Origin: a virus
Direction: 5' to 3' (one strand)
Length of the DNA: 64,000 bases
IMG/VR virus record: IMGVR_UViG_3300034104_003795
Coordinates: 26,370 to 90,369 of that record
Positions 1 through 26,676 of this stretch are shown here, piece after piece (the first letter of the stretch is position 1; every line of letters begins with the position of its first letter). The notes beneath the pieces are model-generated. The model did no database searches and had not been told where the DNA came from. It saw only the letters and a list, made by a program, of their open reading frames with translations. The translations under genes and the position numbers were made by a program.

Positions 1-65
1 GAAAGAAACCCAATATCGTAGTATGTAGTATTTTATTTTACTCATACTAATAAATATTAACTAAA

Positions 66-1445
66 CTAAATACCGATTTCTTTAAGACGGAGTAACTCCT
101 GCTGAATATGTTTATTGAAAGGATTCCATTTAATATTTTCTAACATCCACTTACGATACCAAATTGGAATCTTACGAATTTCAGTATCTTTGTATTTTCC
201 GAATGTCATCTTAACCACCGGTCCTTGTGCAGCTATATCGTGCGGCGATGGTTGATTTTGTTTATGTAAACCAATTTCATGAAGTGGAATACCTGTCAAT
301 AACTTCTGACCTTCTCCATATAATTTCCAAAGGGGTACTTCGTAATCAAAATATAAATCTTCTACCTTCCCGAACTTCGGTACACTTCCCACGAAATCAA
401 TTATAAGCCCATTCTGCTTCTCAGGATGGATACGTGTCACTCTACCAACAAATTGATACCACCAACTCAAAGAAGCCGTAGGTCTCCCCGTAATGATACA
501 ATCCAGTTGTGGATGGTCAAACCCTACTGAAAGGATTGTAACTTGTACGATGATTCTTAATACACCTCTTTTAAATTCATCTATTATCCTATCTCTATCG
601 GCATCCGCCATACCACTATATATCGGTGCACAACTTGGTAGACGGGTTGAAAGTTCTTTTGCTTCTTCAATTGAAGGAACTGCCACCAATATTGATTTTC
701 TATCCGGTAATTGAGCTATTTTACGAATTATCTTACCTGCAATATCCTGGTCTTTGTACGCCCTTCTAATACTTTCTTCGGTATATTCAGCATTTGTTGA
801 ATTATATACTAAATCACCGGTTTCAAAATCGTATGATTCATATTGTAGTGGTGACCAGAATCCTAAATCAACCATTTCCTTAATTTGAGCAACGTGGATG
901 ATTTCTTTGAAGAAATTACCCTTTTTACTCTTTGAAGTAAGCATTACTAACTTTGAAAATGGTTTTCCGAACTCATCCATATTAGTTTGTAACTTTAAAG
1001 GGGTTGCTGTTAATCCTAATATGTGTGTTATTTTAGATGCAGTTAAAAATCTCCTTAACATACCATCTGGTTCTCTAGGAAAACGGTCACATTCATCAAT
1101 AATCACCTTTTTTATCCCTAATTCGTGGAATTTCCAAGCAATATTAACAATTGAACCGATTGTAGCATAAGTTACATCACCAATCTCCTTTTCATTCATA
1201 GATGCGGAGTAAATTGATGCTTTTCCACCTAAATTGATGAATTTATTGTAATTTTGTTCTAATAACTCTTTTGAAGGCTGAATAACTAGGATTTTTTCAC
1301 CCAATTGGTGAGCAATTTCAGCAATAACGATACTTTTACCAAAAGCGGTAGGGGCAACAATGATTGAAGGGTGCGGCTTCTTACTTTTAAAGAATTCCAC
1401 ACCCTTTTTTACAGGTTCTATCTGATTCGGTCTTAATTCCATCAA
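66..1445 (-). CDS. Superfamily-2 DEAD/DEAH-like DNA/RNA helicase
   Basis: 459-aa ORF; Walker A 'APTAFGKS', DExD-like 'IIDECDRF', motif III 'LGLTATP', motif VI 'QFVGRVTR'. Confidence 0.7.
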   Translation of the reverse strand: MMELRPNQIEPVKKGVEFFKSKKPHPSIIVAPTAFGKSIVIAEIAHQLGEKILVIQPSKELLEQNYNKFINLGGKASIYSASMNEKEIGDVTYATIGSIVNIAWKFHELGIKKVIIDECDRFPREPDGMLRRFLTASKITHILGLTATPLKLQTNMDEFGKPFSKLVMLTSKSKKGNFFKEIIHVAQIKEMVDLGFWSPLQYESYDFETGDLVYNSTNAEYTEESIRRAYKDQDIAGKIIRKIAQLPDRKSILVAVPSIEEAKELSTRLPSCAPIYSGMADADRDRIIDEFKRGVLRIIVQVTILSVGFDHPQLDCIITGRPTASLSWWYQFVGRVTRIHPEKQNGLIIDFVGSVPKFGKVEDLYFDYEVPLWKLYGEGQKLLTGIPLHEIGLHKQNQPSPHDIAAQGPVVKMTFGKYKDTEIRKIPIWYRKWMLENIKWNPFNKHIQQELLRLKEIGI

Positions 1446-1446
1446 A

Positions 1447-1797
1447 TTATTTTAAATATTCCGGTCCATACACACCATATTGGGCAGTTCCATCTATAAT
1501 ATTACCTCTAGCGTGCTTTGCTGGAGCTTTCCAAGTGGCTGCTTTCAATAAATCACCTTTTTTTATCGGTGAACCTTTCAAATCACCATCAACTCTACTA
1601 ATAAATCCCCAACAAGATGTACCTTGCCAAATTCTAATGAATTTATTACCAACTTCAATCACTACCGGTTTGTATTGATTGGGCATACTACATTTTTCGT
1701 AATATTCTTTACGTTCTTTATCCAATTTTTCAATAAAATTAGCTACAATAGGGTTACTTTTCAAATAATCCAATGCTTTTTGATTCGGTGTTCTCAT
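1447..1797 (-). CDS. hypothetical protein (116 aa)
   Basis: ORF separated by 1 nt from helicase ORF; no recognisable motif. Confidence 0.45.
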   Translation of the reverse strand: MRTPNQKALDYLKSNPIVANFIEKLDKERKEYYEKCSMPNQYKPVVIEVGNKFIRIWQGTSCWGFISRVDGDLKGSPIKKGDLLKAATWKAPAKHARGNIIDGTAQYGVYGPEYLK

Positions 1798-2044
1798 ATT
1801 TCTTAATTTTTATTTACAATTTTTAAAATCAAAGGTGAATTTCTTACGAGCCCACTCTTTTTTCTCTTTTTTCTTCTTGTCAACTACTGTTTTTTCACGA
1901 AAACGTCCATCGTAAGCTCCCGCTTGTATCATATCGGCTCGTTTTAACGTTAATTCATAATTTTTCATAATCATAATCTTTTTACTATGTAAAAATACGA
2001 AAAAATTTCCAATTTTCCAAATTTTTTTTCATAAAAATACCCTC

Positions 2045-2129
2045 ATAAGTCATTGAAAATCAACAAATTATGAACTTTTTTGAGTTTTTTATAAATATTT
2101 GATTATCAACCACTTATAAGTCATTGACC
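2045..2129. promoter_or_regulatory. intergenic regulatory motifs: ATAAGTCATTGAAAATCAA (2045-2063) and TTGATTATCAACCACTTATAAGTCATTGACC (2098-2129)
   Basis: same palindromic TTGAT..ATCAA / TCATTGA..TCAATGA motif family recurs in >=9 intergenic regions of the window. Confidence 0.5.
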
Positions 2130-2151
2130 TTCAATAATTTATCTCAAAATA

Positions 2152-2183
2152 TTTGGTTTGGTGGAAATTTTTTCGTATATTTG
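2152..2183 (+). promoter_or_regulatory. Bacteroidetes-type sigma-A promoter candidate (-33 TTTG, -7 TATATTTG)
   Basis: TTTG at 2152-2155, TATATTTG at 2176-2183 (spacer 20 nt); upstream of 2380 ORF with ~190-nt leader. Confidence 0.35.
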
Positions 2184-2379
2184 TTAAACTTTTACAAAAA
2201 ATGAATATAGTTATAAGAGTAAAAAATGTTTCAAAGCCTATGAATGTAGAATATACATATACAAATTTATATATAACGAATTTGACTGTAAAAAGTCATA
2301 AACTCTAAAAGGGTATGGGGAGTAATCTCTATACCTTTTTTATTTTTAATGGTTACAATTTAAACAAAAAACAAAACAC

Positions 2380-5300
2380 ATGAAAAAAATCGGAAAATTT
2401 CTCCTTATGGTAGTGATAACACTATTATCATTTGGAGCAAGTGCGCAAGAAACTACCTCTGAAATTCAGGGTTTGGTTTCTGATGGAAAAGCCGGATTAG
2501 CAGGTGTAACAATTGTAGCTACTCACCAGCCAACGGGTACGAAGTATAGTACTTCTTCTCGTACTGATGGTAGATACAACTTGCCAAACTTGAAAATCGG
2601 TGGACCGTATTCAATTCACGTAACATCAATTGGTTTCAAAGCAGAACATCAAGACGATATTACATTGTTATTGGGTCAGTCACACAAGGCAAACTTTATT
2701 TTGAAAGAAGCATCAACAACTTTGAAAGAAGTAGTTGTAACTTCAGGACAAAGTAAGGTATTTAACTCTAGCCGTAATGGTTCTCAAGAGATTATCAACA
2801 GACAATTGATTGAGAGAATACCAAACGTTAATAGAAGCTGGAAAGATTTAGTTAAATTAGTACCTTCACAAAACAACTTATCATTTGGTGGTTTATCTTC
2901 TCAATTGAATAACGTTACTTTGGATGGTGCTAACTTCAATAACTCTTTCGGTTTAGGTGATGGTACATTGGGTGGTCAAACTGGAGCACAACCAATCTCA
3001 TTGGATGCGATTGAGCAAATCCAAGTTAACGTTTCACCGTTTGATGTTAAGTTCGGTGGTTTCGCAGGTGGTTCAATCAACACCGTAACTCGTAGTGGTA
3101 AGAACCAATCATTCGGTTCGGTTTACCAATTCTTTAAGAATAAAGATTTACAGGGTTACAAAGTTGGTGATGTAACTTTACCAAAGCAAGATTTCACTTA
3201 TGATTTAAAAGGATTCACCGCAGGTGGAGCAATTGTTAAAAACAAATTGTTCTTCTTTGTAAATGGTGAACAAGAAAGTAGAATGGAACCTGGTACACAA
3301 TGGGTAGCATCTGATGCCAACAATACACCAAATGGTATCAACGTATCTCAAGCTAAAGCAGCTGATTTGGATGCATTGAGAAAGTTCTTAATTGAAAAAT
3401 ATAATTACGATCCAGGTGCATATCAAGGATACCAATATGGTTCAGTATCAAAAAGATTGACTACTAAATTAGATTGGAATATTAATAGTAAAAATTCATT
3501 CTCATTGAAATATACACTATTACGTTCATCAGCAGATATTCCAGCATCTAACTCACAATCGGTAAATGCATCAAATGGTAGAAGACCAAGTACAACTTCA
3601 ATGCCGTTTTATGGTGGTGGTTATACGATTAATAACAATGCGGATATTATTATTGGTGAGTTAAACACTAGATTCTCAAATAACGCTTCCAACAAATTAC
3701 AAATTGGATACACTAAATTGAGAGATTTTAGAGGAACATTGACTAGTGGTAATTTCCCACAAGTAGATATATTAGATGGTAACGGTCAACCTTTCACAAC
3801 TTTTGGTTATGAAAGATTTACTTATGGTAACGTTTTAAATTCAGATGTAATTCAATTGAATAACATTTTCAACTTATATAAAGGTAAGCATGAATTTACA
3901 TTCGGTACACAAAATTCATTTAAGAAATATTCAAATGGATTCTCACCTAACTATGCCGGAGCATTCCGTTTTAATAGTTTAGCTGATTTCTACGCATCTG
4001 CAGAAGGTACAAAACCGGCAGCTGCGTATGATTTATCGTGGTCATTAACCGGTGATTTTCCGTTGGTTGGTCCAAAGAATACTGAATTAAGTTTATTTGC
4101 TCAGGACAAATTTAGAGTAAAAGATAACTTAACAATCACTTACGGTTTGAGAGCGGATTATGTATCTTTCGCTGATAATTTCCTTTACAATCCAGTAGTT
4201 GATACATTATCTAAATTCTATGATGGTGTAAGATTAAATACAGGTTTAGCACCTAAAAATGCTTTACAACTTTCGCCTAGAATTGGTTTCAACTGGGATG
4301 TGAATAATGACCAAACATTGCAAGTTCGCGGTGGTACTGGTTTATTTCAAGGACCTCCACCATTCGTTTGGATATCTAACCAAGCATCTAATAGTGGTAT
4401 GGCATTATTCGGAAGTATTACAAACGCAACCGGATATATGTTTAATCCAGATATTAATGCATATAGACCAACTCCAACACCTGGTTTATCTAGAGCATAT
4501 TCTCTTAACGTAACTGACCCTAACTACAAATTCCCTCAAGTATGGAAATCAACGTTAGCAGTAGATAAGAAAGTATTAGGATGGACCGTAACTGCGGAAG
4601 GAACTTATATTAAGAACATCAACGCTACTGTATTCCAAAACGTTGCATTACCTTCAACAGGAAATATTACGTTAAGTGATGGTAGAACTCGTTTCATCAA
4701 ACGTTCAGTTTACGATGCAACTGGAACTGCTCAAACATCAGCTAATCCAAACATTGGTAACGCAATTTATATGACTAATGCAAACGTTGGTTATGTATTA
4801 TTCGGAACATTGCAGGTTCAAAGACAATTTAAGAATTTAGCGGTAAACGCTTCTTACACTCGTCAAACTGCAAAAGATGGTACAATCAATGGTTCTACTG
4901 CATTTACAATGTGGGGAGCTAGACCAACATCTACAAACCCTAATAACTTTGAAGAAGGTTTTTCAAACAACTACCTACCTCATAGAATCATAGGTTCATT
5001 TGTTTATGGTAAAGAGTTTATTAAGAATACAAGAACTTCAATTGGTTTATTATATGAAGCTTCTCCAAATTCTCCACAATCTTCTCTATCTTACACATAC
5101 GCGGGTGATTTGAATAATGATGGTTTCAATGGTAATGATTTAATCTTCGTTCCTAAAGATGCATCTCAAATCAAATTAACTAACGCATCTGCAGTAGGTG
5201 GTGTAGCTGATACTCGTACACAAGAAGAATTATGGAATCAATTAGATGCTTTCATTTCAAATAACAAATACCTTTCAACTCGTAGAGGCCAGTTTGCTGA

Positions 5301-5640
5301 AAGACAAGCATTAGTATTACCTTGGGTTCATAGATTAGATTTGAATTTCACACAAGATGTTTATATCAAAGTTAAAGATACAAAACATACTTTAAGATTC
5401 ACAGCCGATATCTATAACTTCACAAACTTCATCAGCAAAGATTGGGGTGTAAACCAAACTCCAACAACTGTAACTCCACTTAACTTCGTAAGATTGGATA
5501 CTGATGGAAAAACTCCGGTATTCTCATTCCCTTATTTAGATGGAAGAAACAAAGTTCCGTTTACTGATTCATTCAGAGATAACGTAGGATTTAGTTCTCG
5601 CTACCAAATTCAATTGGGTGTAAGATATATCTTTAACTAA
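2380..5640 (+). CDS. TonB-dependent receptor-like outer-membrane protein (SusC/RagA-type, N-terminal carboxypeptidase-regulatory-like domain)
   Basis: 1086 aa; signal peptide MKKIGKFLLMVVITLLSFGASAQE; N-terminal 'GLVSDGKAGLAGVTIVATH...GRYNLPNLKIGGPYSIHVTSIGF' CarbopepD_reg-like; Gly/Asn/Thr/Tyr-rich beta-barrel-like body ending ...GVRYIFN. Confidence 0.7.
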   Translation: MKKIGKFLLMVVITLLSFGASAQETTSEIQGLVSDGKAGLAGVTIVATHQPTGTKYSTSSRTDGRYNLPNLKIGGPYSIHVTSIGFKAEHQDDITLLLGQSHKANFILKEASTTLKEVVVTSGQSKVFNSSRNGSQEIINRQLIERIPNVNRSWKDLVKLVPSQNNLSFGGLSSQLNNVTLDGANFNNSFGLGDGTLGGQTGAQPISLDAIEQIQVNVSPFDVKFGGFAGGSINTVTRSGKNQSFGSVYQFFKNKDLQGYKVGDVTLPKQDFTYDLKGFTAGGAIVKNKLFFFVNGEQESRMEPGTQWVASDANNTPNGINVSQAKAADLDALRKFLIEKYNYDPGAYQGYQYGSVSKRLTTKLDWNINSKNSFSLKYTLLRSSADIPASNSQSVNASNGRRPSTTSMPFYGGGYTINNNADIIIGELNTRFSNNASNKLQIGYTKLRDFRGTLTSGNFPQVDILDGNGQPFTTFGYERFTYGNVLNSDVIQLNNIFNLYKGKHEFTFGTQNSFKKYSNGFSPNYAGAFRFNSLADFYASAEGTKPAAAYDLSWSLTGDFPLVGPKNTELSLFAQDKFRVKDNLTITYGLRADYVSFADNFLYNPVVDTLSKFYDGVRLNTGLAPKNALQLSPRIGFNWDVNNDQTLQVRGGTGLFQGPPPFVWISNQASNSGMALFGSITNATGYMFNPDINAYRPTPTPGLSRAYSLNVTDPNYKFPQVWKSTLAVDKKVLGWTVTAEGTYIKNINATVFQNVALPSTGNITLSDGRTRFIKRSVYDATGTAQTSANPNIGNAIYMTNANVGYVLFGTLQVQRQFKNLAVNASYTRQTAKDGTINGSTAFTMWGARPTSTNPNNFEEGFSNNYLPHRIIGSFVYGKEFIKNTRTSIGLLYEASPNSPQSSLSYTYAGDLNNDGFNGNDLIFVPKDASQIKLTNASAVGGVADTRTQEELWNQLDAFISNNKYLSTRRGQFAERQALVLPWVHRLDLNFTQDVYIKVKDTKHTLRFTADIYNFTNFISKDWGVNQTPTTVTPLNFVRLDTDGKTPVFSFPYLDGRNKVPFTDSFRDNVGFSSRYQIQLGVRYIFN

Positions 5641-5648
5641 TAATAAAT

Positions 5649-5676
5649 GGGGAGAAGAAATTCTCCCCTTTATTTT
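5649..5676 (+). terminator. rho-independent terminator
   Basis: GGGGAGAA-gaaa-TTCTCCCC hairpin followed by TTTATTTTG. Confidence 0.7.
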
Positions 5677-5704
5677 GTCCTTTAAATAAATTTTCGTATA
5701 TTTG
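5674..5704 (+). promoter_or_regulatory. Bacteroidetes-type promoter candidate (-33 TTTG, -7 TATATTTG) directly abutting ATG 5709
   Basis: TTTG 5674-5677, N19, TATATTTG 5697-5704; implies near-leaderless transcript. Confidence 0.4.
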
Positions 5705-5708
5705 TACA

Positions 5709-6248
5709 ATGAGTAAAATTATTAATCTATTCGGTGGACCTTCAATTGGTAAATCCACACAAGCGGCCGGTTTGTATTATGAAATGAAAAAGGCAGGATA
5801 CAATGTTGAGATGCCTTATGAGTTTCCAAAGTTACAAGCTTGGGAAAGAAATGTATATGCAGTTAAAGACCAATTTTATATTACCGCTAATCAACATCGT
5901 AACATTTCTCGTCTTTATGGACAGGTAGATTATATTATTGTTGATTCTCCAATTCTATTTGGATTAATTTATAAAAATCACTATAACGAAGAACCGGAAT
6001 ATCCTTCTATGTTTTATGGATATAAGTTTGACGAGTTTATTGTTGACTTGCATGGACATTACGATTCTCTTAATATAGTGTTAGATAGAGACCCTACAAT
6101 GTACCAAGAAGATGGAAGATTTCAAAATTTAGAAGAAAGTATAGAAATTGATAAAGAGATTGTTGGTATGCTTGAAAAATACAATGTAGAGTATTTTAAA
6201 GTACCAATCAATAATGATACAGCCAATATCATTATATCACTATTATAG
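5709..6248 (+). CDS. P-loop NTPase / putative nucleoside(-tide) kinase
   Basis: 179 aa; Walker A 'LFGGPSIGKST' at N-terminus; small kinase-like size. Confidence 0.5.
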   Translation: MSKIINLFGGPSIGKSTQAAGLYYEMKKAGYNVEMPYEFPKLQAWERNVYAVKDQFYITANQHRNISRLYGQVDYIIVDSPILFGLIYKNHYNEEPEYPSMFYGYKFDEFIVDLHGHYDSLNIVLDRDPTMYQEDGRFQNLEESIEIDKEIVGMLEKYNVEYFKVPINNDTANIIISLL

Positions 6249-6552
6249 TATAATACATTTTATTAACTATCACAATTAAAGTTGTTTATCACAATGTGGA
6301 TAGCTAGTATTACCATACCTTTTTATACGATATTTATTAAAACAAATTAGCGCTTGTTTTATTATTATGTTATTTTGATTAACTTAAACAAATAGAAACA
6401 TGCAAACAATTGTAGATTTCGTATTCAATTTTCACTTCCTTGTAGGTGGATTAGTTGGATACTTCGCTGTTCCTTTCTTAGTAAAATTCGCTAAAGGATT
6501 CCTAAAGAAGTAATAGTAAATTAAAAACAAAGTTGATATTAGCTAATCAAAC

Positions 6553-6590
6553 AAACCCTCATAGAAATATGGGGGTTTTTTATTTTTTCA
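6553..6590 (+). terminator. rho-independent terminator
   Basis: ACCCTCATA-gaaa-TATGGGGGT hairpin followed by TTTTTTATTTTTT. Confidence 0.65.
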
Positions 6591-6707
6591 TTATATATAT
6601 TATTGAAACCTTGTGGTTAATCCTTTAGTGTTCTCCGAAACATTTGAGTTGAAAATAAAACCCTCAACGAATAAAGGCTTAAATAAACAAACAAAAACAA
6701 GAAAATT

Positions 6708-7496
6708 ATGTACAACATTACAAACACGTGGTCTGCTACAAAAAGACCAGAAGCCTTCATTACGAAAGGTAAAAAAAGAATCAAACAATTTGATGGACAA
6801 GTATATCTCTCCGATGGAGATGAATACGAAATCGAATTATTCAATCCTACACAAGAAGTAGTATTAGCAAAAATTAAAATTGATGGAGATTATATTGCCG
6901 GTGGTGGTATAGTTCTTCGTAGGGGTGAAAGAGTATTTTTAGAACGATTCTTGGATTCACCAGAGAAGTTTAAATACTCAACCTATGTAGTTAATGGAAA
7001 TAATACAGAGGTTCAGGATGCGATTGCAAATAACGGATATGTAGAGATTGAATTCTATTCAGAATACAAACCAACTTGGAATAGTGGATTCCTAACAACA
7101 GGTACATTCAACCCCCAAACCATTAATGGAAATCCAATAACATATACTACAACGGGTAATAGTGGAAATTTCACTTTAACATCAGGCAATACAACTAGTA
7201 CATTCTATAATGCTAGTTTAACTTCTAATACATTAGCCGGTCCAAATATTAGAAACCTATCCAATAAGATAGAAACCGGTACAACTGAAAAGGGTAGTAG
7301 TTCAGACCAAACATTTCAACATACAAACAAAACATTCAATTCGTTTTCGTTTTGGAATGTAGCTTGGCAAATTCTACCAACATCGCAAAAACAATATACG
7401 GCAGAAGAAGTAGGTGTAAACTATTGTGGAAATTGTGGAGCTAAAAGAAAGAAATCATCTTTTAAATTCTGCCCGCACTGCGGAAATAAATTCTAA
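6708..7496 (+). CDS. hypothetical protein with C-terminal CxxC...CxxC zinc ribbon and Ser/Thr/Asn-rich central region
   Basis: 262 aa; C-terminus 'NYCGNCGAKRKKSSFKFCPHCGNKF'. Confidence 0.5.
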   Translation: MYNITNTWSATKRPEAFITKGKKRIKQFDGQVYLSDGDEYEIELFNPTQEVVLAKIKIDGDYIAGGGIVLRRGERVFLERFLDSPEKFKYSTYVVNGNNTEVQDAIANNGYVEIEFYSEYKPTWNSGFLTTGTFNPQTINGNPITYTTTGNSGNFTLTSGNTTSTFYNASLTSNTLAGPNIRNLSNKIETGTTEKGSSSDQTFQHTNKTFNSFSFWNVAWQILPTSQKQYTAEEVGVNYCGNCGAKRKKSSFKFCPHCGNKF

Positions 7497-7528
7497 TAAG
7501 TTATAATAAATCACAAGGTATTCAAAGA

Positions 7529-7556
7529 AAAAGGGAAGTGTAATTACTTCCCTTTC
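7529..7556. terminator. bidirectional rho-independent terminator between convergent genes
   Basis: AAGGGAAGT-gtaatt-ACTTCCCTT hairpin flanked by A-run upstream and T-run downstream. Confidence 0.7.
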
Positions 7557-7573
7557 TTTTTTATAATAATTTA

Positions 7574-8152
7574 TTAAAATGGTTCACCGGTTGTTAAATC
7601 TCCACCCGTTATTTTTGGTTTAGAAGTCCACCAGTCTTTGGGTAAAGTATTTAAAATAAATACTTGAGCCCTTGCGGTAAAATCCGGACGCATTATCGTA
7701 AATAATAATAGTTTTGCAAAAAACTGCTCATCTTCTTTTGTAAGCTTATGTTTTGTTTTTAGTTTCTTATATGAAGATGTTTTTAATAGTTTTTCTACAA
7801 CTCTTTTTGCAGTTGAATTCGGCTTGAAATCAGGAGCATTAATAGTTTTCCAAATTCTCCAAGTACCATGTAAATCAGATTTATCAGATGTTTTAACTTT
7901 TCTAAAGTCATCGGCTGTTTTTTCAAAGTCACCTTCATCGGAAAGAATCTTTGCAAAATCTTTTACAAATGGTTTATCATCCCACATATCATTTATTGCC
8001 TGAATAACGTTATCATTTGGAAGTGGTTTATCTTTTATTCCCGGTGTACCTTTATCCCAGTTTTTATTAATAAACTTTAATCCATACGATGCAAGATACA
8101 AAGCGGCTAATGTAAGTAAACCAGCACCTAAATCTTCTTTTAAAATTTTCAT
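7574..8152 (-). CDS. hypothetical membrane-anchored protein (192 aa)
   Basis: N-terminal hydrophobic segment 'AGLLTLAALYLASYGL'; Lys-rich body. Confidence 0.45.
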   Translation of the reverse strand: MKILKEDLGAGLLTLAALYLASYGLKFINKNWDKGTPGIKDKPLPNDNVIQAINDMWDDKPFVKDFAKILSDEGDFEKTADDFRKVKTSDKSDLHGTWRIWKTINAPDFKPNSTAKRVVEKLLKTSSYKKLKTKHKLTKEDEQFFAKLLLFTIMRPDFTARAQVFILNTLPKDWWTSKPKITGGDLTTGEPF

Positions 8153-8176
8153 ACATATAAATATAATGGAAACTAA

Positions 8177-8503
8177 TTATCCACTATACGCAGTAATGTG
8201 CTTTATCTTACCATCGTTAGTCCAATCAATTACATCCACTATTTTAAGTGTAGAACCACCAATTTCCAATTGTATGTGACCGTATGTACGATTACCACTA
8301 ATACGAACCTCATCAATCTTTAGATGAAATTCATTGTTAAAAAGGTTCTCATTCATTTCAAGTACAGCTAATCTACCCTTCCATTGTCCATTCCAATCAG
8401 TTAGGGTAATATCTTCACTATACAATTCTTCTAACCCTTTTGGGTTTTTACTCAAAAACAAGTTAAAGTACTTGTGTGTTAATTCAATTAAATTTAATTC
8501 CAT
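8177..8503 (-). CDS. hypothetical protein (108 aa)
   Basis: ORF in minus-strand operon; no motif recognised. Confidence 0.45.
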   Translation of the reverse strand: MELNLIELTHKYFNLFLSKNPKGLEELYSEDITLTDWNGQWKGRLAVLEMNENLFNNEFHLKIDEVRISGNRTYGHIQLEIGGSTLKIVDVIDWTNDGKIKHITAYSG

Positions 8504-8516
8504 AATATTTTATTTT

Positions 8517-10391
8517 TTAAACTACATCTTTTTGTTTACGGTTGATATCTCTATCGGATAACTCTATGTTTGATACGGCACTAGAACCACCTTTTGCTCT
8601 TGCTTTATTATGTGCTCTATCTGTTTCTTCTGTAGACCCTAGCAGATTTACTAACTCGTCAAAATCGGATGAAACCAATTTAGAAACGGTTGGTAGTTCG
8701 GAGCATGATATAAATCCAATTTCGCAAAAAGGATGTTTAGATGTTTTCATATCAATCATAGTAGTTTGAAATGCATGTTCAATGTGTTTGTTAAATACAT
8801 TAATAACACACGAGTGGTCATGTCCCCAAGTTAATAAATCACCAATAAAGTGTCTACCAAAAGACTTTTCAATATCTTTTGTTTCGTTTTTTTCACATTT
8901 CTTTTCAATATCTACCCAATCATTTTGGTATTCTTTAGCCAAGTCTTTTGCAGAAAGAGGATGTGGTTTTGTTGTAAAATCAAAAGCTTTCTTACTTTTC
9001 CAAAATTCAATCTGGTCCTTACCATCTTCGGTTTGCCAATAATTAGTATTTTGTGGATGTGTTATTTTAGATTCTATAAAACATACCATAAGAATACTAT
9101 GAATAAATTCATACATATTTGAATCTTTTATATCCAATTTCCACTTATCTCTTCCGTGAGAATATACATAATTGTTTCTATAATAATTCAAAGCAAACAT
9201 ACAATATATGAAAAAGGAAGCCTTCTCATAAGTTTTTTTGAATACTTTAGCGTTGGGTTGGGCATCAATATCTGATATAGCAGCCATAACTTTTACCATA
9301 TCCGTAAGAAGTTTATCACCCCATTCTATTATAAAAGGCGAATCATCTTTAAATAAGATTTTACAAATGTCTGATTTTGTTTTTACCTCAAATCTATTAA
9401 TGGATTGTGGTTGAGCATAAATTGTAGCCATTAGTACTCCTATAAAGTATTGCCAACCACCATCATTTCTCTTAAAAGTACCTTTAGAGATTGATAATGG
9501 ACTTGTTTTAGTATAGAATAATTTCTCGTATTTATTTAAATCATTTGTTCTCTCTGGCATCAAATTATCTCTAAACCAAGTAGAATATGCGGAAAATGAT
9601 TGAATTGCTTCGAATGCAAAGTCATCCCATCCAGCCGATTGGTTACTTCGTTTAACGTATGTCATTATACTACTAAAATCATTTGAATCAACAATTTCAA
9701 TTATACATAATTGACAAGATTCCAAATAACTTTGAAATATATTTTTTCTTTCATCGTAACTCAAATCTTTTGCAAAATCATATAATAACCACTCACCTGC
9801 GGAACAAAGTTTTGTTTTTAATTCATGCAAACTCGTAACGGTTTCATTATAAACTTCACCATTAATTTCCGCCTTTAAATTAGAGTATTCAACTTGAGTT
9901 GTTTTTTTCTTATTTTTAGGTTCAAGATTTCCCAAATAATCTTGTTTTATAGAATCAAATCTATGTTGTCCATTGATTATGAAATACTGACCAGTTTTTT
10001 CAGTAAAGTAATTCAGATAAATTGTTAAACTAGCAATTACACTTTCGTATCTTTCAATCAAAACATTATTTTGCTTTGATTTTTTTGATTGTTCGTACTT
10101 TATATCTTCTCGTTTTTCATCAATCTGTCTTTTGATTATATTAACAACGGTTTCTGCTTTTATAATATAATACCCTGCGGAAGTACCATACCCAGTTGTT
10201 ACTGATGCGCACATTCCCTTTTGTGTATCAAAATTCAACTCTCTCATTAAGCGATTTAGAGTTGGGTCATTGATGATTACATCAATATTATCAATTAATG
10301 ATTTTAGAGAAGTTCCAAATATTCTAGTGAGAATATCTTTAGATGCTGTTATTTTTATAGCATCGTTTTCAAATAAAGGAGAATATATCAT
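8517..10391 (-). CDS. large nuclease-like protein, possibly GmrSD-like (DUF262 ParB-like + DUF1524 His-Me finger)
   Basis: 624 aa; 'YFIINGQHRF' resembles DUF262 (I/V)DGQQR motif; C-terminal 'GHDHSCVINVFNKHIEHAF' His-rich HNH-like patch; weak, by-eye only. Confidence 0.35.
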   Translation of the reverse strand: MIYSPLFENDAIKITASKDILTRIFGTSLKSLIDNIDVIINDPTLNRLMRELNFDTQKGMCASVTTGYGTSAGYYIIKAETVVNIIKRQIDEKREDIKYEQSKKSKQNNVLIERYESVIASLTIYLNYFTEKTGQYFIINGQHRFDSIKQDYLGNLEPKNKKKTTQVEYSNLKAEINGEVYNETVTSLHELKTKLCSAGEWLLYDFAKDLSYDERKNIFQSYLESCQLCIIEIVDSNDFSSIMTYVKRSNQSAGWDDFAFEAIQSFSAYSTWFRDNLMPERTNDLNKYEKLFYTKTSPLSISKGTFKRNDGGWQYFIGVLMATIYAQPQSINRFEVKTKSDICKILFKDDSPFIIEWGDKLLTDMVKVMAAISDIDAQPNAKVFKKTYEKASFFIYCMFALNYYRNNYVYSHGRDKWKLDIKDSNMYEFIHSILMVCFIESKITHPQNTNYWQTEDGKDQIEFWKSKKAFDFTTKPHPLSAKDLAKEYQNDWVDIEKKCEKNETKDIEKSFGRHFIGDLLTWGHDHSCVINVFNKHIEHAFQTTMIDMKTSKHPFCEIGFISCSELPTVSKLVSSDFDELVNLLGSTEETDRAHNKARAKGGSSAVSNIELSDRDINRKQKDVV

Positions 10392-10466
10392 TTTTTATGT
10401 TTTATGGGTTTAAAATCTTTTAACTATACAAATATACAACTATTTTTTCAGACCACCAAATCTTTT

Positions 10467-10973
10467 TTAATATTTTATTAGGGATACCACATTTTTACCA
10501 CCGATTCGGATATCACCATGTAGGTAGGTTAAATCAATAAGGGTTACTGCTCCAATCACATTATACCCAGCTAACCTCAATAGTTCCTCTGCCGCAAGTA
10601 AAGTTCCGCCAGTAGCAAGAACATCATCTACAATCACTATATCACCTTTACCTTCTTTAACCTCTAATATATCATGTCCATACTCTTTGGATGAATCTAT
10701 TTTTATTGTAGGTGGTGGTAACTTACCTGCCTTACGAATAGGAACGAATCCTTTACTATCTACTCCTGCGATTGCGGAAGCAAATATAAATCCTCTTGCC
10801 TCTATTCCTGCAACTGAATGACAAGGAAAGTTTTCATCTATTAAAACTACCATTTCATCTATCGCAGATTGAAATGCTCTACCATCTGAAAGGAGTGGTG
10901 TTATATCCCTAAAAGTTACTCCGTCAATCGGAAATCCTTCTACATCGTTAATTAATCTTTTTAAATTTTCCAT
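10467..10973 (-). CDS. apt: adenine phosphoribosyltransferase
   Basis: 168 aa; 'GVTFRDITPLL' N-terminal APRT signature and PRPP-binding 'IVIVDDVLATGGTLLAA'. Confidence 0.85.
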   Translation of the reverse strand: MENLKRLINDVEGFPIDGVTFRDITPLLSDGRAFQSAIDEMVVLIDENFPCHSVAGIEARGFIFASAIAGVDSKGFVPIRKAGKLPPPTIKIDSSKEYGHDILEVKEGKGDIVIVDDVLATGGTLLAAEELLRLAGYNVIGAVTLIDLTYLHGDIRIGGKNVVSLIKY

Positions 10974-10974
10974 T

Positions 10975-11280
10975 TTATATTGTGTTTAAATAATGTACCA
11001 ATGATTCGCCAAAAAGTTCCATATCATGTAATGTTGCTTGATATACAACATCTTCTATAATATCTCCAGTAGAATCATTCATAAGTTTTATATCATAGGT
11101 AAGTTCACTCCATTCATCATTTAATAAACCTTGCCTAAATATAACCAATGTTATTGTTCGTTTACCATCTTTATGTCTGGCCTGCAAAGCATAATGTTCT
11201 TTACCCGCATCGGTTCTACCAATCTGCCAATCACCATACCATTGGTTTTGTATCTTCTTAAAATTTTCTATTGTTAGCAT
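10975..11280 (-). CDS. MLTIENI-family small protein (array A, member 1)
   Basis: starts MLTIENFKKIQNQWYGDWQIG; conserved N-terminus and W-x-I...Y-x-F pattern. Confidence 0.6.
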   Translation of the reverse strand: MLTIENFKKIQNQWYGDWQIGRTDAGKEHYALQARHKDGKRTITLVIFRQGLLNDEWSELTYDIKLMNDSTGDIIEDVVYQATLHDMELFGESLVHYLNTI

Positions 11281-11282
11281 AA

Positions 11283-11753
11283 TTAAAAAGGTATTACTGG
11301 ATGGTATTTATCAACTATTTCTTCTACCATTCCCCAAAAGTTTTTATAATTCAAATCATGCCCTCTAAACCAACCTCTATAATCCCATTCACCTTTATCA
11401 TCGTTAATATACACTTGATACATCATTTCTGGATAATATGGTACAGGTGCAACTTGAAGTTCTCTACCCAAAGTAATATATACTCTCAATTTTTTATCTT
11501 CTCTATGTACAAGTTGAAATGTATATACTTCTTCCGATTCATCCGCAGATAGAATATCCCATCCCCAAAAAATCATCGTAGTAAGTTCTTTATCGTAATT
11601 TTGTATATGTAATTTTTTCTTTTTCATATTTGGTTCTTTTGGTGTAACTGTTACTATAACCTTTCCATAGTTTTTAGGATTGATTGGTTTACTATATCCC
11701 TTTCTAATAAGTTGGTTAGGTCTAAATCCACCTTTTAATTTATTTATTCTCAT
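11283..11753 (-). CDS. MLTIENI-family related protein with N-terminal extension (array A)
   Basis: internal 'LHIQNYDKELTTMIFWGWDILSADESEEVYTFQL' matches family pattern; start could alternatively be internal MKKKK. Confidence 0.5.
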   Translation of the reverse strand: MRINKLKGGFRPNQLIRKGYSKPINPKNYGKVIVTVTPKEPNMKKKKLHIQNYDKELTTMIFWGWDILSADESEEVYTFQLVHREDKKLRVYITLGRELQVAPVPYYPEMMYQVYINDDKGEWDYRGWFRGHDLNYKNFWGMVEEIVDKYHPVIPF

Positions 11754-11754
11754 A

Positions 11755-12063
11755 TTACATTGATGCCTTTAAGCAACTACTAAACGTTCTCATCACATTT
11801 GTAAATTTTCCAAACCATTTCGCAGTTATAATATGAATTGGACAATTAGGATAGTTTAATCGGTATTCCCATGCCTTCTCAATATCATTATAATGCCCAA
11901 TCTTACTTACCTCAATCCAAATATAACGGTGTACACCGGAACTATCATCTCTGAATTGAAATCTATAATTTGTATCCGTTTCAATAGCCTCAGTACAAAT
12001 AAATCTTTCTTTATGAAACATCGCTGTTACTATCTTATCGTAATTTTGTATTATTAGTTTCAT
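11755..12063 (-). CDS. MLTIENI-family divergent member (array A)
   Basis: MKLIIQNYDKIV...; family-like pattern. Confidence 0.5.
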   Translation of the reverse strand: MKLIIQNYDKIVTAMFHKERFICTEAIETDTNYRFQFRDDSSGVHRYIWIEVSKIGHYNDIEKAWEYRLNYPNCPIHIITAKWFGKFTNVMRTFSSCLKASM

Positions 12064-12067
12064 TCAT

Positions 12068-12376
12068 CTATTTTTTATGTTCTGATTGAATATAACATTC
12101 CATCATCAACCAAAATTGCTCCTTATCTTTAAATTGAGAAAGTGGTAGTTGCCCTTTCCAAATTATATTCGTATAAGAACGATACATAACACTAACCTCA
12201 ACTTTACCATTTTTAATTTCTCTCCCTAATTGTACCGCAGCATGTGTAGTATTACCATCAATACATTTCAATTTAAATGTATAATACTGATTGGTTTCTT
12301 GTGCAAAATATATTACCCAATTTTGTATTAGATAATTCTTTAAATCTGCGTAATTACTAATATCTAACTTTTTCAT
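12068..12376 (-). CDS. MLTIENI-family divergent member (array A)
   Basis: 'NYLIQNWVIYFAQETNQYYTFKL' family pattern. Confidence 0.5.
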   Translation of the reverse strand: MKKLDISNYADLKNYLIQNWVIYFAQETNQYYTFKLKCIDGNTTHAAVQLGREIKNGKVEVSVMYRSYTNIIWKGQLPLSQFKDKEQFWLMMECYIQSEHKK

Positions 12377-12384
12377 TTATTATA

Positions 12385-12687
12385 TTATCTTTGTAACCCA
12401 CCCATTATTTCGGTGAATTTGTTCACTAAATTATTTATATCTTTTATATAGTCAAGCGTTACCGCATATCCTATTGGTTTATCATCTAATGTAAATTTAT
12501 ATTCTCCACTACTTTCAGCAATTCTATTAAGAGATAATTTCCTTACATCATCTATTTTACCTGTTAAAGGGTTTTTTCTTAACAATACGAAGTGATACCA
12601 ATTGTCAGTTTCACTAATACTATCCACCAACCAATGTTTGTCAAACGCATATTGGTTTAATTTATTTACATTTAATATTGTTAGCAT
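12385..12687 (-). CDS. MLTIENI-family member (array A)
   Basis: MLTILNVNKLNQYAFDKHWLV... Confidence 0.6.
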   Translation of the reverse strand: MLTILNVNKLNQYAFDKHWLVDSISETDNWYHFVLLRKNPLTGKIDDVRKLSLNRIAESSGEYKFTLDDKPIGYAVTLDYIKDINNLVNKFTEIMGGLQR

Positions 12688-12688
12688 G

Positions 12689-12964
12689 TTATATTAATTC
12701 ATCTATTAAAAATCTTACAAACTCATCTCTATCTCCCATACACTCTATTGGTAGATAATGTTCTTTTTGTGTTTCTAAACAATAGACATGATAATCACCA
12801 TGCTTTGTTTTCTTCCTATCAATACAAAGGTTAAACATATCAAAAGGTGAACCATTGTGTATTGTCTTTATATAGTAGATATCATCTCCTATTGACAAGT
12901 TATGTATCTTCCAATGGCCTATATACTTACCAGCCAATGTATTTATGTTTTGTATTGTTAGCAT
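12689..12964 (-). CDS. MLTIENI-family member (array A)
   Basis: MLTIQNINTLAGKYIGHWKIH... Confidence 0.6.
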   Translation of the reverse strand: MLTIQNINTLAGKYIGHWKIHNLSIGDDIYYIKTIHNGSPFDMFNLCIDRKKTKHGDYHVYCLETQKEHYLPIECMGDRDEFVRFLIDELI

Positions 12965-12965
12965 T

Positions 12966-13286: not shown

Positions 13287-13287
13287 C

Positions 13288-24156: not shown

Positions 24157-24157
24157 A

Positions 24158-26675: not shown

Positions 26676-26676
26676 A

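What the first reader, a model, noticed from the sequence alone, without database searches (positions are those of the whole stretch)
2380..5640. Full-length TonB-dependent-receptor/SusC-like outer-membrane protein encoded in a phage moron-like cassette
The 1086-aa ORF has a Bacteroidetes-type signal peptide and an N-terminal carboxypeptidase-regulatory-like domain. A long beta-barrel-like Gly/Asn/Tyr-rich body ends in an aromatic C-terminus. It sits in the only plus-strand block of the window (2380-7496) and has its own terminator. It is preceded by the same palindromic regulatory motifs found elsewhere in the phage, and looks somewhat GC-richer than its surroundings. A phage-carried TonB-dependent receptor could act in superinfection exclusion by remodelling or blocking a receptor, in nutrient uptake during infection, or be a recent host capture.
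Basis: partly seen in the sequence, partly recalled or inferred. Interest (0 to 1): 0.7.

Follow-up and report, generated by a model that had tools for sequence, protein, structure and literature searches.

The report
Jumbo-phage TonB-dependent transporter cassette
A lineage of very large freshwater-type phages of Bacteroidota carries, at a fixed spot in the genome, an intact and strongly conserved bacterial-style outer-membrane import channel, so the virus probably re-equips the surface of the cell it infects.

Summary
The ORF is real: 2380-5640 (+), 1086 aa. It is a complete TonB-dependent transporter (TBDT) of the Oar class: signal peptide, CarboxypepD_reg N-terminal extension, TonB box, plug and large barrel. 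It is not SusC-like. The window is phage on both sides, not a host flank. The gene is not a recent capture: GC3 matches the phage, and the closest cellular homolog is only 58-61% identical. The copies form a monophyletic phage clade (83-100% identical) under strong purifying selection (dN/dS about 0.1; plug 0.05), with an invariant TonB box. All relatives with helicase identity of 76% or more and enough flank, except L130 (76%), carry a TBDT here. The cassette exists in three types (A, A' about 69%, B about 37% identical) exchanged between conserved flanks. More distant relatives lack it. Other phage-like contigs (L097-L099) acquired the same ortholog independently (81-90% identical to cellular copies). 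The cassette has a Bacteroidota-type promoter shared with other phage genes. It also has a phage-specific leader: a small ORF whose stop codon lies in a terminator hairpin. The most likely role is a functional, host-TonB-powered importer used during infection, substrate unknown. Surface remodelling or superinfection exclusion remains a serious rival. Annotation-level precedent exists (Mar_Mega_1 megaphage).

The parts
2045..2142 (.). Cluster of ATAAGTCATTGA boxes in the divergent intergenic region. It includes an imperfect 22-bp palindrome at 2106-2127. These look like operator sites and are shared with other intergenic regions of the phage.
   Evidence: positions 2045, 2106, 2116, 2131; other clusters near 18006-18069, 37113-37164, 43663-43707, 48354-48375, 52407-52459; sequence.
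2152..2183 (+). Bacteroidota-type sigma-A promoter: -33 TTTG (2152-2155), a 20-nt spacer, and -7 TATATTTG (2176-2183). It is embedded in the phage-wide 12-mer TTCGTATATTTG.
   Evidence: Sequence. The 12-mer is exact 8 times in the window. It is conserved upstream of type A, A' and some type B cassettes. The consensus TTTG-N19-21-TAnnTTTG is from established knowledge of Bacteroides and Flavobacterium promoters.
2201..2308 (+). Leader small ORF of 35 codons (MNIVIRVKNVSKPMNVEYTYTNLYITNLTVKSHKL). Its stop codon abuts the leader hairpin.
   Evidence: In 20 of 24 unique phage upstream regions an sORF of 25 codons or more ends in the hairpin, against about 1.0 expected. Among upstream regions of bacterial orthologs and L097-L099 this is seen in 1 of 78.
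2307..2346 (+). Terminator-like leader hairpin plus T-run, about 40 nt before the TBDT start codon. Inferred to be an attenuator that must be read through for the TBDT to be transcribed.
   Evidence: 15 pairs; dG -14.2 kcal/mol; present at -74 to -31 in 24 of 24 unique upstream regions, with 17 different stem sequences. (leader fold z-score -2.6). There is no room for a promoter between the hairpin and the ATG.
2380..5640 (+). TonB-dependent transporter CDS, 1086 aa, Oar class, cassette type A.
2380..2445 (+). Sec signal peptide (residues 1-22), with signal peptidase I site ASA|Q.
   Evidence: Sequence. The mature N-terminus QETTSEIQ is conserved in phage and bacterial orthologs.
2464..2703 (+). 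CarboxypepD_reg N-terminal extension (residues 29-108).
   Evidence: Beta-sandwich strands in the model.
2728..2745 (+). TonB box EVVVTS (residues 117-122) in a flexible linker.
   Evidence: EVVVT followed by S, A or T in all eight most frequent variants among 127 unique phage-clade sequences, and matched in bacterial orthologs. Low pLDDT at residues 113-123. The Oar TonB box lies at the equivalent place (PMC6434023).
2809..3072 (+). Plug domain (Pfam match at residues 144-231). It is the most constrained part of the protein.
   Evidence: dN/dS 0.05; entropy about 0.1 bit.
3085..5637 (+). Beta-barrel (OMP_b-brl_4), ending in the conserved C-terminal motif RY[IL]FN.
   Evidence: C-terminus.
5649..5678 (+). 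Intrinsic-terminator-like hairpin plus T-run, 9 nt after the TBDT stop codon. It lies next to the right-hand boundary of the swapped cassette (about 5700).
5693..5704 (+). Second copy of the promoter 12-mer TTCGTATATTTG, which serves the AAA_28 gene.
5709..6248 (+). P-loop kinase-like gene (AAA_28). It is a frequent but not obligatory neighbour of the TBDT, and it is widespread in large phages independently of it.
6708..7496 (+). 262-aa protein with a C-terminal zinc ribbon; the last gene of the plus-strand block. It also occurs in relatives that have no TBDT, so it is not part of the cassette proper.
   Evidence: homologs in L130, L134-L136, L143, L152-L154, L157.

Best explanation
The gene encodes a functional TonB-dependent outer-membrane transporter of the Oar class. 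It was captured long ago from a Chitinophagaceae-like Bacteroidota host and has since been kept as a near-core, swappable cassette next to the replicative helicase in a sub-lineage of jumbo phages of about 270-300 kb.

Proposed mechanism.
- Host RNA polymerase starts at a Bacteroidota-type promoter of the same class as several other phage promoters in the window (motif shown; its use is inferred).
- Transcription has to pass a leader in which a small ORF ends inside a terminator hairpin. Translation of that leader probably decides whether the hairpin forms, giving conditional read-through (anatomy shown; mechanism inferred).
- The 1086-aa precursor is exported by host Sec and cut at ASA|Q. Host BAM then inserts it into the outer membrane (inferred from intact sorting signals).
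- Its invariant TonB box couples it to the host TonB-ExbBD motor (inferred).
- It then imports a scarce, probably bulky, nutrient that limits production of a very large virion burst. The substrate is unknown. Organophosphate or nucleic-acid-derived compounds are a speculative candidate.

Different cassette types (A, A', B) would give different substrate specificity or host compatibility.
For: Identity.
- Pfam architecture is CarboxypepD_reg + Plug + OMP_b-brl_4.
- The AlphaFold model has pLDDT 88.1 and pTM 0.84.
- All top PDB fold matches are TonB-dependent transporters: FusA 4zgv (E 6e-31), YddB 6ofr, then siderophore receptors.

It is a maintained, working protein.
- dN/dS is 0.09-0.14 at dS up to 0.88. 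By domain: plug 0.05, strands 0.09, loops 0.14.
- The TonB box EVVVT[SAT] holds across the frequent variants, and the plug is nearly invariant, in 127 unique sequences.
- The phage-to-bacterial variability ratio is the same for loops (0.206) and strands (0.207).
- 237 of 270 columns that are at least 90% conserved in bacteria are retained; bacterial controls retain 79-97%.
- The phage branch (0.17-0.19) is not longer than that of its cellular sister P0121 (0.20-0.22).

It belongs to the phage.
- Identical synteny on 274-kb and 299-kb contigs and on IMG/VR contigs.
- TBDT identity across relatives (85-97%) equals that of the helicase (80-99%) and far exceeds that of the small neighbouring genes (30-70%).
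- GC3 is 0.236, typical of the phage.
- The promoter 12-mer is shared with other phage genes.

Selective value.
- 25 helicase-anchored relatives carry a TBDT at this locus, in three types.
- L097-L099 carry independently acquired orthologs.

Context consistent with nutrient or nucleotide economy.
- PhoH and NT5C lie just outside the window.
- The window encodes a nucleoside phosphorylase, a phosphoribosyltransferase and a P-loop kinase.
- The nearest cellular relative of type B is followed by Fasciclin and PhoD genes.
Against: - No substrate can be named. Neighbours of the bacterial orthologs are housekeeping genes (a tandem TBDT paralog; NadA confirmed by Pfam; RibBA-like and TamB-like called by eye only) and say nothing about the substrate.
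- No expression or localisation data exist.
- A 1086-aa barrel needs host Sec, BAM and TonB to keep working during infection. That is untested for this phage.
- Wholesale exchange of cassette types between otherwise similar, co-occurring phages is also what receptor-related or exclusion modules do.
- Repeated capture of one ortholog family would be expected too if that protein were a common phage receptor.
- Some plug positions conserved in bacteria are changed and fixed in the phage clade: Q143L, T149N, G166N, Q225Y, G232S.
- The only characterised Oar-class member exports a protein rather than importing a nutrient (PMC6434023).
Confidence: 0.5

Rival explanations
1. Surface remodelling or superinfection exclusion. 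The host's own ortholog is the receptor for this phage or for its competitors. The phage supplies a diverged copy that keeps the essential transport function but is not recognised. It would replace or dilute the host receptor, so infected cells and their debris adsorb fewer phages. The cassette types A, A' and B would then track receptor specificity.
For: - TBDTs are classic phage receptors (established for FhuA, BtuB and FepA). They are implicated for Bacteroides phages, by docking only (PMC10028833).
- Three divergent types are exchanged at one locus between closely related phages found in the same metagenomes.
- Other phage-like contigs captured the same ortholog family independently.
- The gene sits in the early region behind a host-type promoter.
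- A known analogue, from memory, is the lambdoid phage PA-2 Lc porin, which replaces OmpC, the phage's own receptor.
Against: - Within type A the surface loops are not hypervariable: dN/dS is 0.14, and the phage-to-bacterial entropy ratio equals that of the strands.
- The TonB box and plug are the most conserved parts, which simple masking would not require.
- Adding a new barrel does not remove receptors that are already in the membrane.
- No gene for shutting off or blocking the host receptor is seen in the cassette.
Confidence: 0.24
2. Export rather than import. [quoted passage not shown]
For: - The domain architecture is the same as the Oar subclass, including the position of the TonB box (PMC6434023).
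- The best structural matches, FusA and YddB, handle protein-sized cargo.
- In L097 the TBDT cassette is followed by AAA_28 and a non-specific endonuclease, Endonuclease_NS.
Against: - Only one Oar-class protein has been shown to export anything.
- No conserved candidate cargo gene travels with the cassette in the window lineage; the neighbours vary.
- The window protein is a distant relative of Oar. It shares the architecture, and orthology was not shown.
Confidence: 0.08
3. The gene is passive cargo or an artefact: a recently captured and decaying host gene, host chromosome flanking a prophage end, or a chimeric assembly.
For: - It lies on the opposite strand to the rest of the window.
- Its homologs are overwhelmingly bacterial.
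Against: - The same gene in the same place is assembled independently in dozens of metagenomes.
- Phage genes lie on both sides.
- GC3 is typical of the phage.
- Purifying selection is strong over dS about 0.9.
- No cellular homolog exceeds 61% identity among 1.84 billion representatives.
Confidence: 0.02

Closest known systems
Putative 'TonB-dependent receptor (SusC)' of the marine megaphage Mar_Mega_1 and of LR745206 (Michniewski et al. 2021, PMC9723777; UniProt A0A8D9FQQ5)
   Same: A full TBDT fold encoded by a very large phage for which a Bacteroidota host is predicted. It is the only whole-fold match among BFVD viral structures (E 5.6e-26). Its authors interpreted it as an uptake AMG.
   Different: - It is only 11% identical, 805 aa long, and labelled SusC-type.
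- It was reported as one annotation line. Selection, locus conservation, cassette exchange and regulatory leader were not analysed.
- The protein here is Oar-class, with a CarboxypepD_reg extension and an OMP_b-brl_4 barrel.
[quoted passage not shown]
   Same: Signal peptide, CarboxypepD_reg N-terminal extension, TonB box after the extension, plug and large 22-strand-type barrel, with a length of about 1,000-1,100 aa.
   Different: Oar is chromosomal, comes from a different phylum, and is needed for protein secretion. Sequence relatedness to the phage protein is remote. Whether the phage protein imports or exports is unknown.
Chromosomal orthologs in Chitinophagaceae and other Bacteroidota (Ferruginibacter, Sediminibacterium, Segetibacter and others; metagenomic P0121)
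   Same: They share the length, the mature N-terminus QETTSEI, the TonB box, the C-terminal RY[IL]FN motif and 88% of the near-invariant columns. The phage clade nests among them in the tree.
   Different: - They are at most 58-61% identical to the phage protein.
- They sit among housekeeping genes, often beside a tandem paralog.
- They lack the phage promoter 12-mer and the sORF-plus-hairpin leader.
FusA (4zgv) and YddB (6ofr), TBDTs that import small proteins
   Same: They are the best structural matches to the model.
   Different: They are 11-13% identical, about 760-810 aa long, lack the CarboxypepD_reg extension and are proteobacterial. TM-score normalised to the query is only about 0.51.
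Phage-encoded outer-membrane proteins and uptake components (from memory): PA-2 Lc porin, lambda Lom and Bor, T5 Llp, phi80 Cor, and the cyanophage PstS phosphate-binding AMG
   Same: These are phage genes of host origin that change the infected cell's envelope or its nutrient uptake. They are typically self-contained cassettes with their own promoter and terminator.
   Different: None of them is a TonB-dependent transporter. Most are small proteins of temperate phages. The Lc, Llp and Cor mechanisms concern exclusion, whereas PstS is a periplasmic binding protein.
Translation-coupled leader attenuators (from memory): the pyrBI leader of E. coli, where a leader ORF runs into the attenuator hairpin
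   Same: A small ORF whose translation reaches a terminator hairpin just upstream of the regulated gene.
   Different: No sequence relationship, and no Rfam match. The signal that is sensed is unknown. The mechanism here is inferred from anatomy alone.

Membership tests
TonB-dependent transporter (TBDT) superfamily | Cleavable N-terminal signal peptide for Sec export | tested here: met
   MKKIGKFLLMVVITLLSFGASA|QETT. The same layout is seen in all phage and bacterial orthologs. No dedicated predictor was run.
TonB-dependent transporter (TBDT) superfamily | TonB box (a short beta-strand motif such as xTxVVTA) N-terminal to the plug | tested here: met
   EVVVTS at residues 117-122, held as EVVVT[SAT] across the frequent variants of 127 unique phage sequences. 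It lies in a low-pLDDT flexible linker.
TonB-dependent transporter (TBDT) superfamily | Plug domain (PF07715) inside the barrel | tested here: met
   PF07715 scores 25.5 bits against a cut-off of 23.9, a marginal pass. Support comes from the whole-chain fold matches and from the strongest constraint in the protein, dN/dS 0.05.
TonB-dependent transporter (TBDT) superfamily | 22-stranded C-terminal beta-barrel | tested here: inconclusive
   The barrel fold is confirmed: OMP_b-brl_4 E 1.7e-40, and 225 PDB matches at E<=0.001, the top-ranked ones all TBDTs. DSSP gives 26 long beta segments, which include loop hairpins.
TonB-dependent transporter (TBDT) superfamily | Transport that depends on TonB-ExbBD and the proton-motive force | not testable with these tools
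   Needs genetics or biochemistry.
Oar subclass of TBDTs (PMC6434023) | N-terminal extension with a CarboxypepD_reg domain (PF13620/PF13715) in front of the TonB box and plug | tested here: met
   PF13620 E 3.5e-15 and PF13715 E 4.7e-08 at residues 29-120. Type B has the same.
Oar subclass of TBDTs (PMC6434023) | Role in protein secretion (PopC-type cargo) | not testable with these tools
   No candidate cargo gene is conserved in the cassette.
   The NCBIfam scan returned only a sub-threshold hit to a ligand-gated channel model: 18.8 bits against a cut-off of 927.
   The downstream genes are AAA_28 and a zinc-ribbon protein. No SusD-type gene flanks the cassette in relatives, and none was detected next to the bacterial orthologs by neighbour clustering.
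   SusC-type chains (8aa4, 8ypu) rank 35th and 37th, behind FusA, YddB and the siderophore receptors.
Phage moron / auxiliary metabolic gene cassette | Self-contained transcription unit with its own promoter and terminator, inserted between phage genes | tested here: met
   Promoter motif at 2152-2183, terminator at 5649-5678. The swap boundaries at about 2031 and 5700 coincide with the ends of the unit.
Phage moron / auxiliary metabolic gene cassette | Cellular origin | tested here: met
   The family is overwhelmingly bacterial: 21,756 representatives at E<=0.001. The phage clade nests within Chitinophagaceae-type orthologs.
Phage moron / auxiliary metabolic gene cassette | Dispensable for the basic phage cycle, shown by presence or absence among relatives | tested here: met
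   It is absent from about 39 relatives with helicase identity of 71% or less and at least 4.5 kb of flank, and from L130 (76%). It is present in 25 closer relatives.
Phage moron / auxiliary metabolic gene cassette | Expressed during infection or lysogeny, with benefit to the phage or host | not testable with these tools
   There is only indirect support from purifying selection.
Phage superinfection-exclusion outer-membrane proteins | Blocks or replaces the receptor used by the same or competing phages | not testable with these tools
   The host and the receptor are unknown. The absence of loop hypervariability is only indirect evidence against.

The most novel reading that the evidence does not exclude
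This jumbo-phage lineage carries a dedicated, exchangeable 'outer-membrane transporter slot'. It is a fixed locus next to the helicase into which different Oar-class TBDTs (types A, A', B) are swapped by recombination. Each type is placed under the same phage-invented control unit: a host-type promoter plus a leader peptide that ends in a terminator hairpin. Together with independent captures of the same ortholog by unrelated phages, this would mean that re-equipping the host's TonB-powered uptake or surface machinery is a general, regulated infection strategy of Bacteroidota phages. It would also mean that the leader is a new translation-coupled attenuator that senses the state of the infected cell.
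Probability: 0.3. Interest if true: 0.8.

Novelty: new variant of a known kind. Interest (0 to 1): 0.6.

Why it matters
Phage auxiliary genes are usually soluble enzymes or small envelope proteins. A 1086-aa TonB-powered barrel needs the host Sec, BAM and TonB systems, so it is an expensive and unusual investment.

Three results point to a strong, specific benefit rather than accidental cargo:
- the gene is conserved as tightly as a replication gene;
- it is exchanged between types at one locus;
- unrelated phages captured the same ortholog again.

If it imports a limiting nutrient, viruses directly change what infected Bacteroidota take up in lakes and similar habitats. That affects how carbon, phosphorus or iron fluxes are attributed.

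If it acts in exclusion, it identifies a receptor class for a large group of uncultured phages.

In either case the uncharacterised bacterial ortholog family gains a testable handle, and the leader offers a candidate new attenuator in a phylum whose gene regulation is poorly known.

Tried and rejected
1. Near-identity DNA search of window 1-12000 against 50,697 phage records found no match. A protein search of the same collection found only two short metagenomic 'Bacteriophage sp.' contigs, at 31% and 39% identity.
2. A PDB sequence search with the TBDT found no hit at E<=0.01. Only fold comparison worked.
3. A riboswitch in the leader: the Rfam scan of 1800-7700 at E<=1 gave only two chance-level hits elsewhere.
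4. Idea: type B is the tandem paralog seen next to the bacterial orthologs. Rejected, because identity is 31-38%, no closer than type A is.
5. Idea: AAA_28 is a dedicated functional partner that would reveal the substrate. Not supported. It is a widespread large-phage P-loop kinase, variously annotated by sources as adenylate kinase family or deoxynucleoside kinase. It has no PDB relative by sequence, and it is missing from some cassettes (L088, L094).
6. Codon-usage anomaly as a sign of recent transfer (distance 0.131 against a null of 0.057). Withdrawn. The null averaged over many genes. Single long phage genes span 0.07-0.16, the other plus-strand genes score 0.112, and they share the same third-position C>G shift.
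7. RNAalifold covariation on 17 hairpin variants was uninformative, because MAFFT misaligned stems of different lengths. The evidence rests on per-sequence folds and the bacterial control.
8. The preprint on lid lipoproteins for non-SusC TBDTs does not mention fasciclin or Oar-type proteins.
It was repeated with 64 sequences.
10. Neighbours of the bacterial orthologs gave no clue to the substrate.

Full report
**What is there.**
The ORF at 2380..5640 (+) is real and encodes 1086 aa. Pfam finds three domains: a CarboxypepD_reg domain (residues 29-108, E 3.5e-15), a Plug domain (144-231, just above its cut-off) and the large OMP_b-brl_4 barrel (236-1017, E 1.7e-40). No SusC/RagA model of NCBIfam matches, and no PHROG family matches. 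The N-terminus is a Sec signal peptide cut at ASA|Q. Residues 117-122, EVVVTS, form a canonical TonB box.

An AlphaFold model built on 64 diverse sequences is confident (mean pLDDT 88.1, pTM 0.84). It has low confidence only at the end of the signal peptide and in the TonB-box linker. All the best matches among solved structures are TonB-dependent transporters. FusA (4zgv, E 6e-31) and YddB (6ofr) lead, siderophore receptors follow, and SusC-type barrels appear only from rank 35. The protein is therefore a complete TBDT of the Oar subclass as defined in PMC6434023. It is not a SusC and not a tail or fibre protein.

**The sub-claims of the observation.**
- The three genes at 2380-7496 are the only credible plus-strand genes among about 133 ORFs.
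- A hairpin plus T-run follows the stop codon at 5649-5668.
- ATAAGTCATTGA boxes, partly arranged as 22-bp palindromes, lie upstream (2045-2142) and in several other intergenic regions.
- GC is only marginally raised (0.352, 77th percentile), and GC3 (0.236) is typical of the phage.
- An apparent codon-usage deviation disappears when single long genes and the other plus-strand genes are used as the yardstick.
- Gly and Asn are enriched; Tyr is not.

**The window is phage, on both sides.**
The window holds about 130 tightly packed small minus-strand genes and 25 tRNA genes. It also has a PHROG-16 helicase next to the TBDT, a DNA ligase and nucleotide-salvage enzymes. The exact protein occurs on a 273,997-bp contig. 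Upstream of the window that genome continues with DUF3310, PhoH, NT5C and HSP20 genes. An 87%-identical copy sits at the same place on a 298,741-bp contig, and IMG/VR holds many relatives. This rules out a host flank or a chimeric assembly.

**Origin and age.**
Among species representatives of GTDB the best homologs are Chitinophagaceae (Ferruginibacter, Sediminibacterium, Segetibacter), at no more than 54% identity. An exhaustive HMMER scan of 1.84 billion representatives found one closer protein, P0121 (61% by HMMER, 58% by BLASTP). P0121 lies on a bacterial contig with SusC/SusD, peptidases and ApbE.

In a neighbour-joining tree the phage copies form one clade. It is sister to P0121 and nested among Chitinophagaceae-type orthologs. 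The phage branch is not longer than that of P0121. So the capture is old, or the donor is unsampled, and evolution did not accelerate afterwards.

**The gene is kept working.**
- Pairwise dN/dS within the clade is 0.09-0.14 at dS up to 0.88.
- The plug is the most constrained part (0.05), and the signal peptide the least.
- In 127 unique sequences the TonB box is preserved as EVVVT[SAT] in the frequent variants, and the plug core is almost invariant.
- With secondary structure from the model, long loops have dN/dS 0.14 and strands 0.09.
- The ratio of phage to bacterial column entropy is the same for loops and strands (0.206 and 0.207).
- The phage clade retains 237 of the 270 columns that are at least 90% conserved in bacterial orthologs. 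That lies within the range of divergent bacterial controls (79-97%).

This is the pattern of an orthologous transporter doing the ancestral job. It is not the pattern of a decaying gene or of a surface protein in an arms race.

**A fixed, exchangeable slot.**
I anchored on the adjacent helicase and fetched 80 IMG/VR loci. Every relative with helicase identity above about 76% and enough flank has a TBDT in this position, 25 loci in all. One relative at 76% (L130) and about 39 relatives at 71% or less have none.

The TBDT is not always the same one:
- 16 loci have type A, the window type, 83-100% identical to the window;
- 4 have type A', about 69% identical;
- 5 have type B, about 37% identical and 80-91% identical among themselves. 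Type B has a different mature N-terminus (QITTSTISG) and C-terminus (IRYTFGK).

Type B has the same Oar-class architecture. Its nearest cellular relative, P0155 (58%), sits in a GH10-GH10-TBDT-Fasciclin-PhoD locus. The types do not follow helicase similarity. Types A and B occur in the same metagenomes: 3300042448 (L142 and L111) and 3300043395 (L106 and L113).

DNA alignment of the window against type-B phages shows homology of 82-88% up to about 2031 and again from about 5700. The control region, the TBDT and its terminator were therefore exchanged as one unit. Across type-A relatives the TBDT is as conserved (85-97%) as the helicase (80-99%), while the surrounding small genes are only 30-70% identical.

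**Independent captures.**
Three other IMG/VR contigs carry orthologs that group with different cellular clades.
- L097 is 81% identical to copies on cellular contigs L016 and L018.
- L098 is 90% identical to L011.
- L099 is 86-87% identical to L013, L014 and L021.

The comparators are cellular: they carry NadA, histidyl-tRNA synthetase, SusD-like and sugar-metabolism genes. The three contigs look like phage. L097 has a PG_binding+GH19 endolysin-like gene, AAA_28 and 262-aa homologs of the window genes, and an Endonuclease_NS. L098 and L099 share an unknown-GT4-TBDT layout. They match PHROG glycosyltransferase families and carry a homing endonuclease. Most of their ORFs have no Pfam hit, and GC is 0.24-0.27 against 0.37-0.42 for the cellular contigs. 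No structural hallmark gene was seen in the 20-kb flanks, so 'phage' is likely but not proven for them.

**Regulation.**
About 200 nt upstream of the start codon lies TTTG(2152-2155)-N20-TATATTTG(2176-2183). This matches the Bacteroidota sigma-A promoter consensus (established knowledge). It is embedded in the 12-mer TTCGTATATTTG, which is exact 8 times in the window, including directly upstream of AAA_28.

Between the promoter and the gene is a leader that ends in a strong hairpin plus T-run (2307-2346). There is no room for a further promoter before the ATG. A 35-codon ORF (2201-2308) stops exactly at the foot of the hairpin.

Across 24 unique upstream regions of types A, A' and B:
- the hairpin is always present at -74 to -31, with 17 different stem sequences;
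- in 20 of 24 an ORF of 25 codons or more has its stop codon in or at the hairpin, against about 1.0 expected from shuffles.

The regions are related, so that probability is overstated. However, at least five unrelated leader peptides are involved. One of them (…NNIL[AS]TYNVFTSILGN…) is shared between a type-A phage (L004) and type-B phages.

The device is absent from bacterial orthologs and from L097-L099. Of 78 such upstream regions, 10 have some hairpin, mostly further upstream, and 1 has a matching sORF. No Rfam family matches. I infer a translation-coupled attenuator invented by this phage lineage. The mechanism and the signal are not shown.

**What it most likely does.**
Shown:
- an intact, exported-type, TonB-box-bearing transporter;
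- a near-core gene of a phage sub-lineage under strong purifying selection;
- the constraint profile of its cellular orthologs;
- expression signals that belong to the phage.

Inferred: it is inserted into the outer membrane of the infected cell, is powered by host TonB, and imports something that limits phage production. The substrate is unknown.

The phage's many nucleotide-salvage and phosphate-related genes (PhoH, NT5C, nucleoside phosphorylase, phosphoribosyltransferase, kinase) are weak hints. So is the PhoD next to the cellular relative of type B. Both point towards phosphorus or nucleic-acid-derived compounds.

The main rival is surface remodelling or superinfection exclusion. Type swapping and repeated capture fit it well. 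It is less easy to reconcile with the very strong conservation of the TonB box and plug and with the lack of loop diversification. Oar-like export is a minor rival.

**Precedent and novelty.**
The paper library holds no study of phage-encoded TBDTs under several phrasings. [quoted passage not shown] That protein is the only whole-fold viral match in BFVD. The INPHARED collection has essentially none.

The general kind is therefore known at annotation level. New here are:
- the Oar-class type;
- lineage-wide conservation under purifying selection;
- the exchangeable slot with three types;
- convergent captures by other phages;
- the phage-specific leader.

Noticed in passing
window 2152-2346 (+); the same position in L004, L086-L096, L108-L128: A leader unit precedes the TBDT: a host-type promoter, an sORF of 25-72 codons, and a terminator hairpin that contains the sORF stop codon. 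It is conserved in position across cassette types, but with at least five unrelated peptides and 17 stem sequences. It is absent from bacterial orthologs. It is a candidate new translation-coupled attenuator.
   Followed up: partly
window 53257-54792 (-): A 511-aa Trp_halogenase-family (flavin-dependent halogenase-like) protein, E 7e-89. This is unusual for a phage. From memory, such genes often sit next to TonB-dependent receptors in Xanthomonas, Alteromonas and Caulobacter loci.
   Followed up: no
window 58861-63850 (-): An array of 25 tRNA genes covering most amino acids, interspersed with small ORFs. A copy of the promoter 12-mer lies at 62115.
   Followed up: no
window 2106-2127, 48354-48375, 37138-37164, 52407-52433, 18006-18069, 43663-43707: A recurrent operator-like palindrome, TCAAnnACTTATAAGTnnTTGA, or spaced inverted pairs of ATAAGTCATTGA, in intergenic regions. 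This suggests a phage-encoded DNA-binding regulator with several targets, one of which is the divergent region between the helicase operon and the TBDT.
   Followed up: partly
window 56927-57739 (-), 10467-10973 (-), 5709-6248 (+), 39672-40433 (-); L001 2981-4436: A dense set of nucleotide-salvage and phosphate-related genes: PNP_UDP_1 nucleoside phosphorylase, phosphoribosyltransferase, P-loop kinase and metallophosphoesterase. NT5C and PhoH lie just outside the window.
   Followed up: no
window 10975-14036 and 23830-26973 (-): Long runs of consecutive ORFs of about 100-108 aa. Some cross-match one another at 30-35% identity in relatives, which suggests expanded paralogous families of small early proteins.
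   Followed up: no
window 6708-7496 (+); L097 30-404; L130, L134-L136, L143, L152-L154, L157: A 262-aa protein with a conserved N-terminal domain, a Thr/Ser/Asn-rich middle and a C-terminal zinc ribbon. It is conserved more widely than the TBDT (44-91% identity), including in phages that lack the cassette.
   Followed up: partly
L098 4242-9652; L099 7160-13276: A second phage-like lineage with very low GC (0.24-0.27) has a conserved layout of an unknown 275-aa gene, a GT4 glycosyltransferase and then the TBDT. Its TBDT is 85-90% identical to cellular Bacteroidia copies. L099 has a homing endonuclease directly downstream.
   Followed up: partly
L097 8345-9552: In this phage-like contig the TBDT is followed by AAA_28 and a non-specific DNA/RNA endonuclease (Endonuclease_NS, E 5e-37). 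This combination would suit scavenging of extracellular nucleic acids. Whether the nuclease has a signal peptide was not checked.
   Followed up: no
L184 8001-13780 (cellular context of P0155): The nearest cellular relative of the type-B cassette overlaps a Fasciclin-domain gene and is followed by a PhoD phosphatase. This may be a phosphorus-scavenging TBDT locus with a fasciclin-type partner.
   Followed up: no
L007 (JADCRZ010000021.1, labelled 'MAG: Williamsia sp.'): A 116-kb contig binned as an actinobacterium carries a Bacteroidota-type Oar-class TBDT with a Q-rule signal peptide. The contig is probably mis-binned.
   Followed up: no
window 31512-32486 (-), 8177-8503 (-): The phage encodes an SPFH/Band_7 membrane-scaffold protein and a SnoaL-like (NTF2-fold) protein. 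The SnoaL gene is conserved near the cassette in relatives at 50-100% identity.
   Followed up: no
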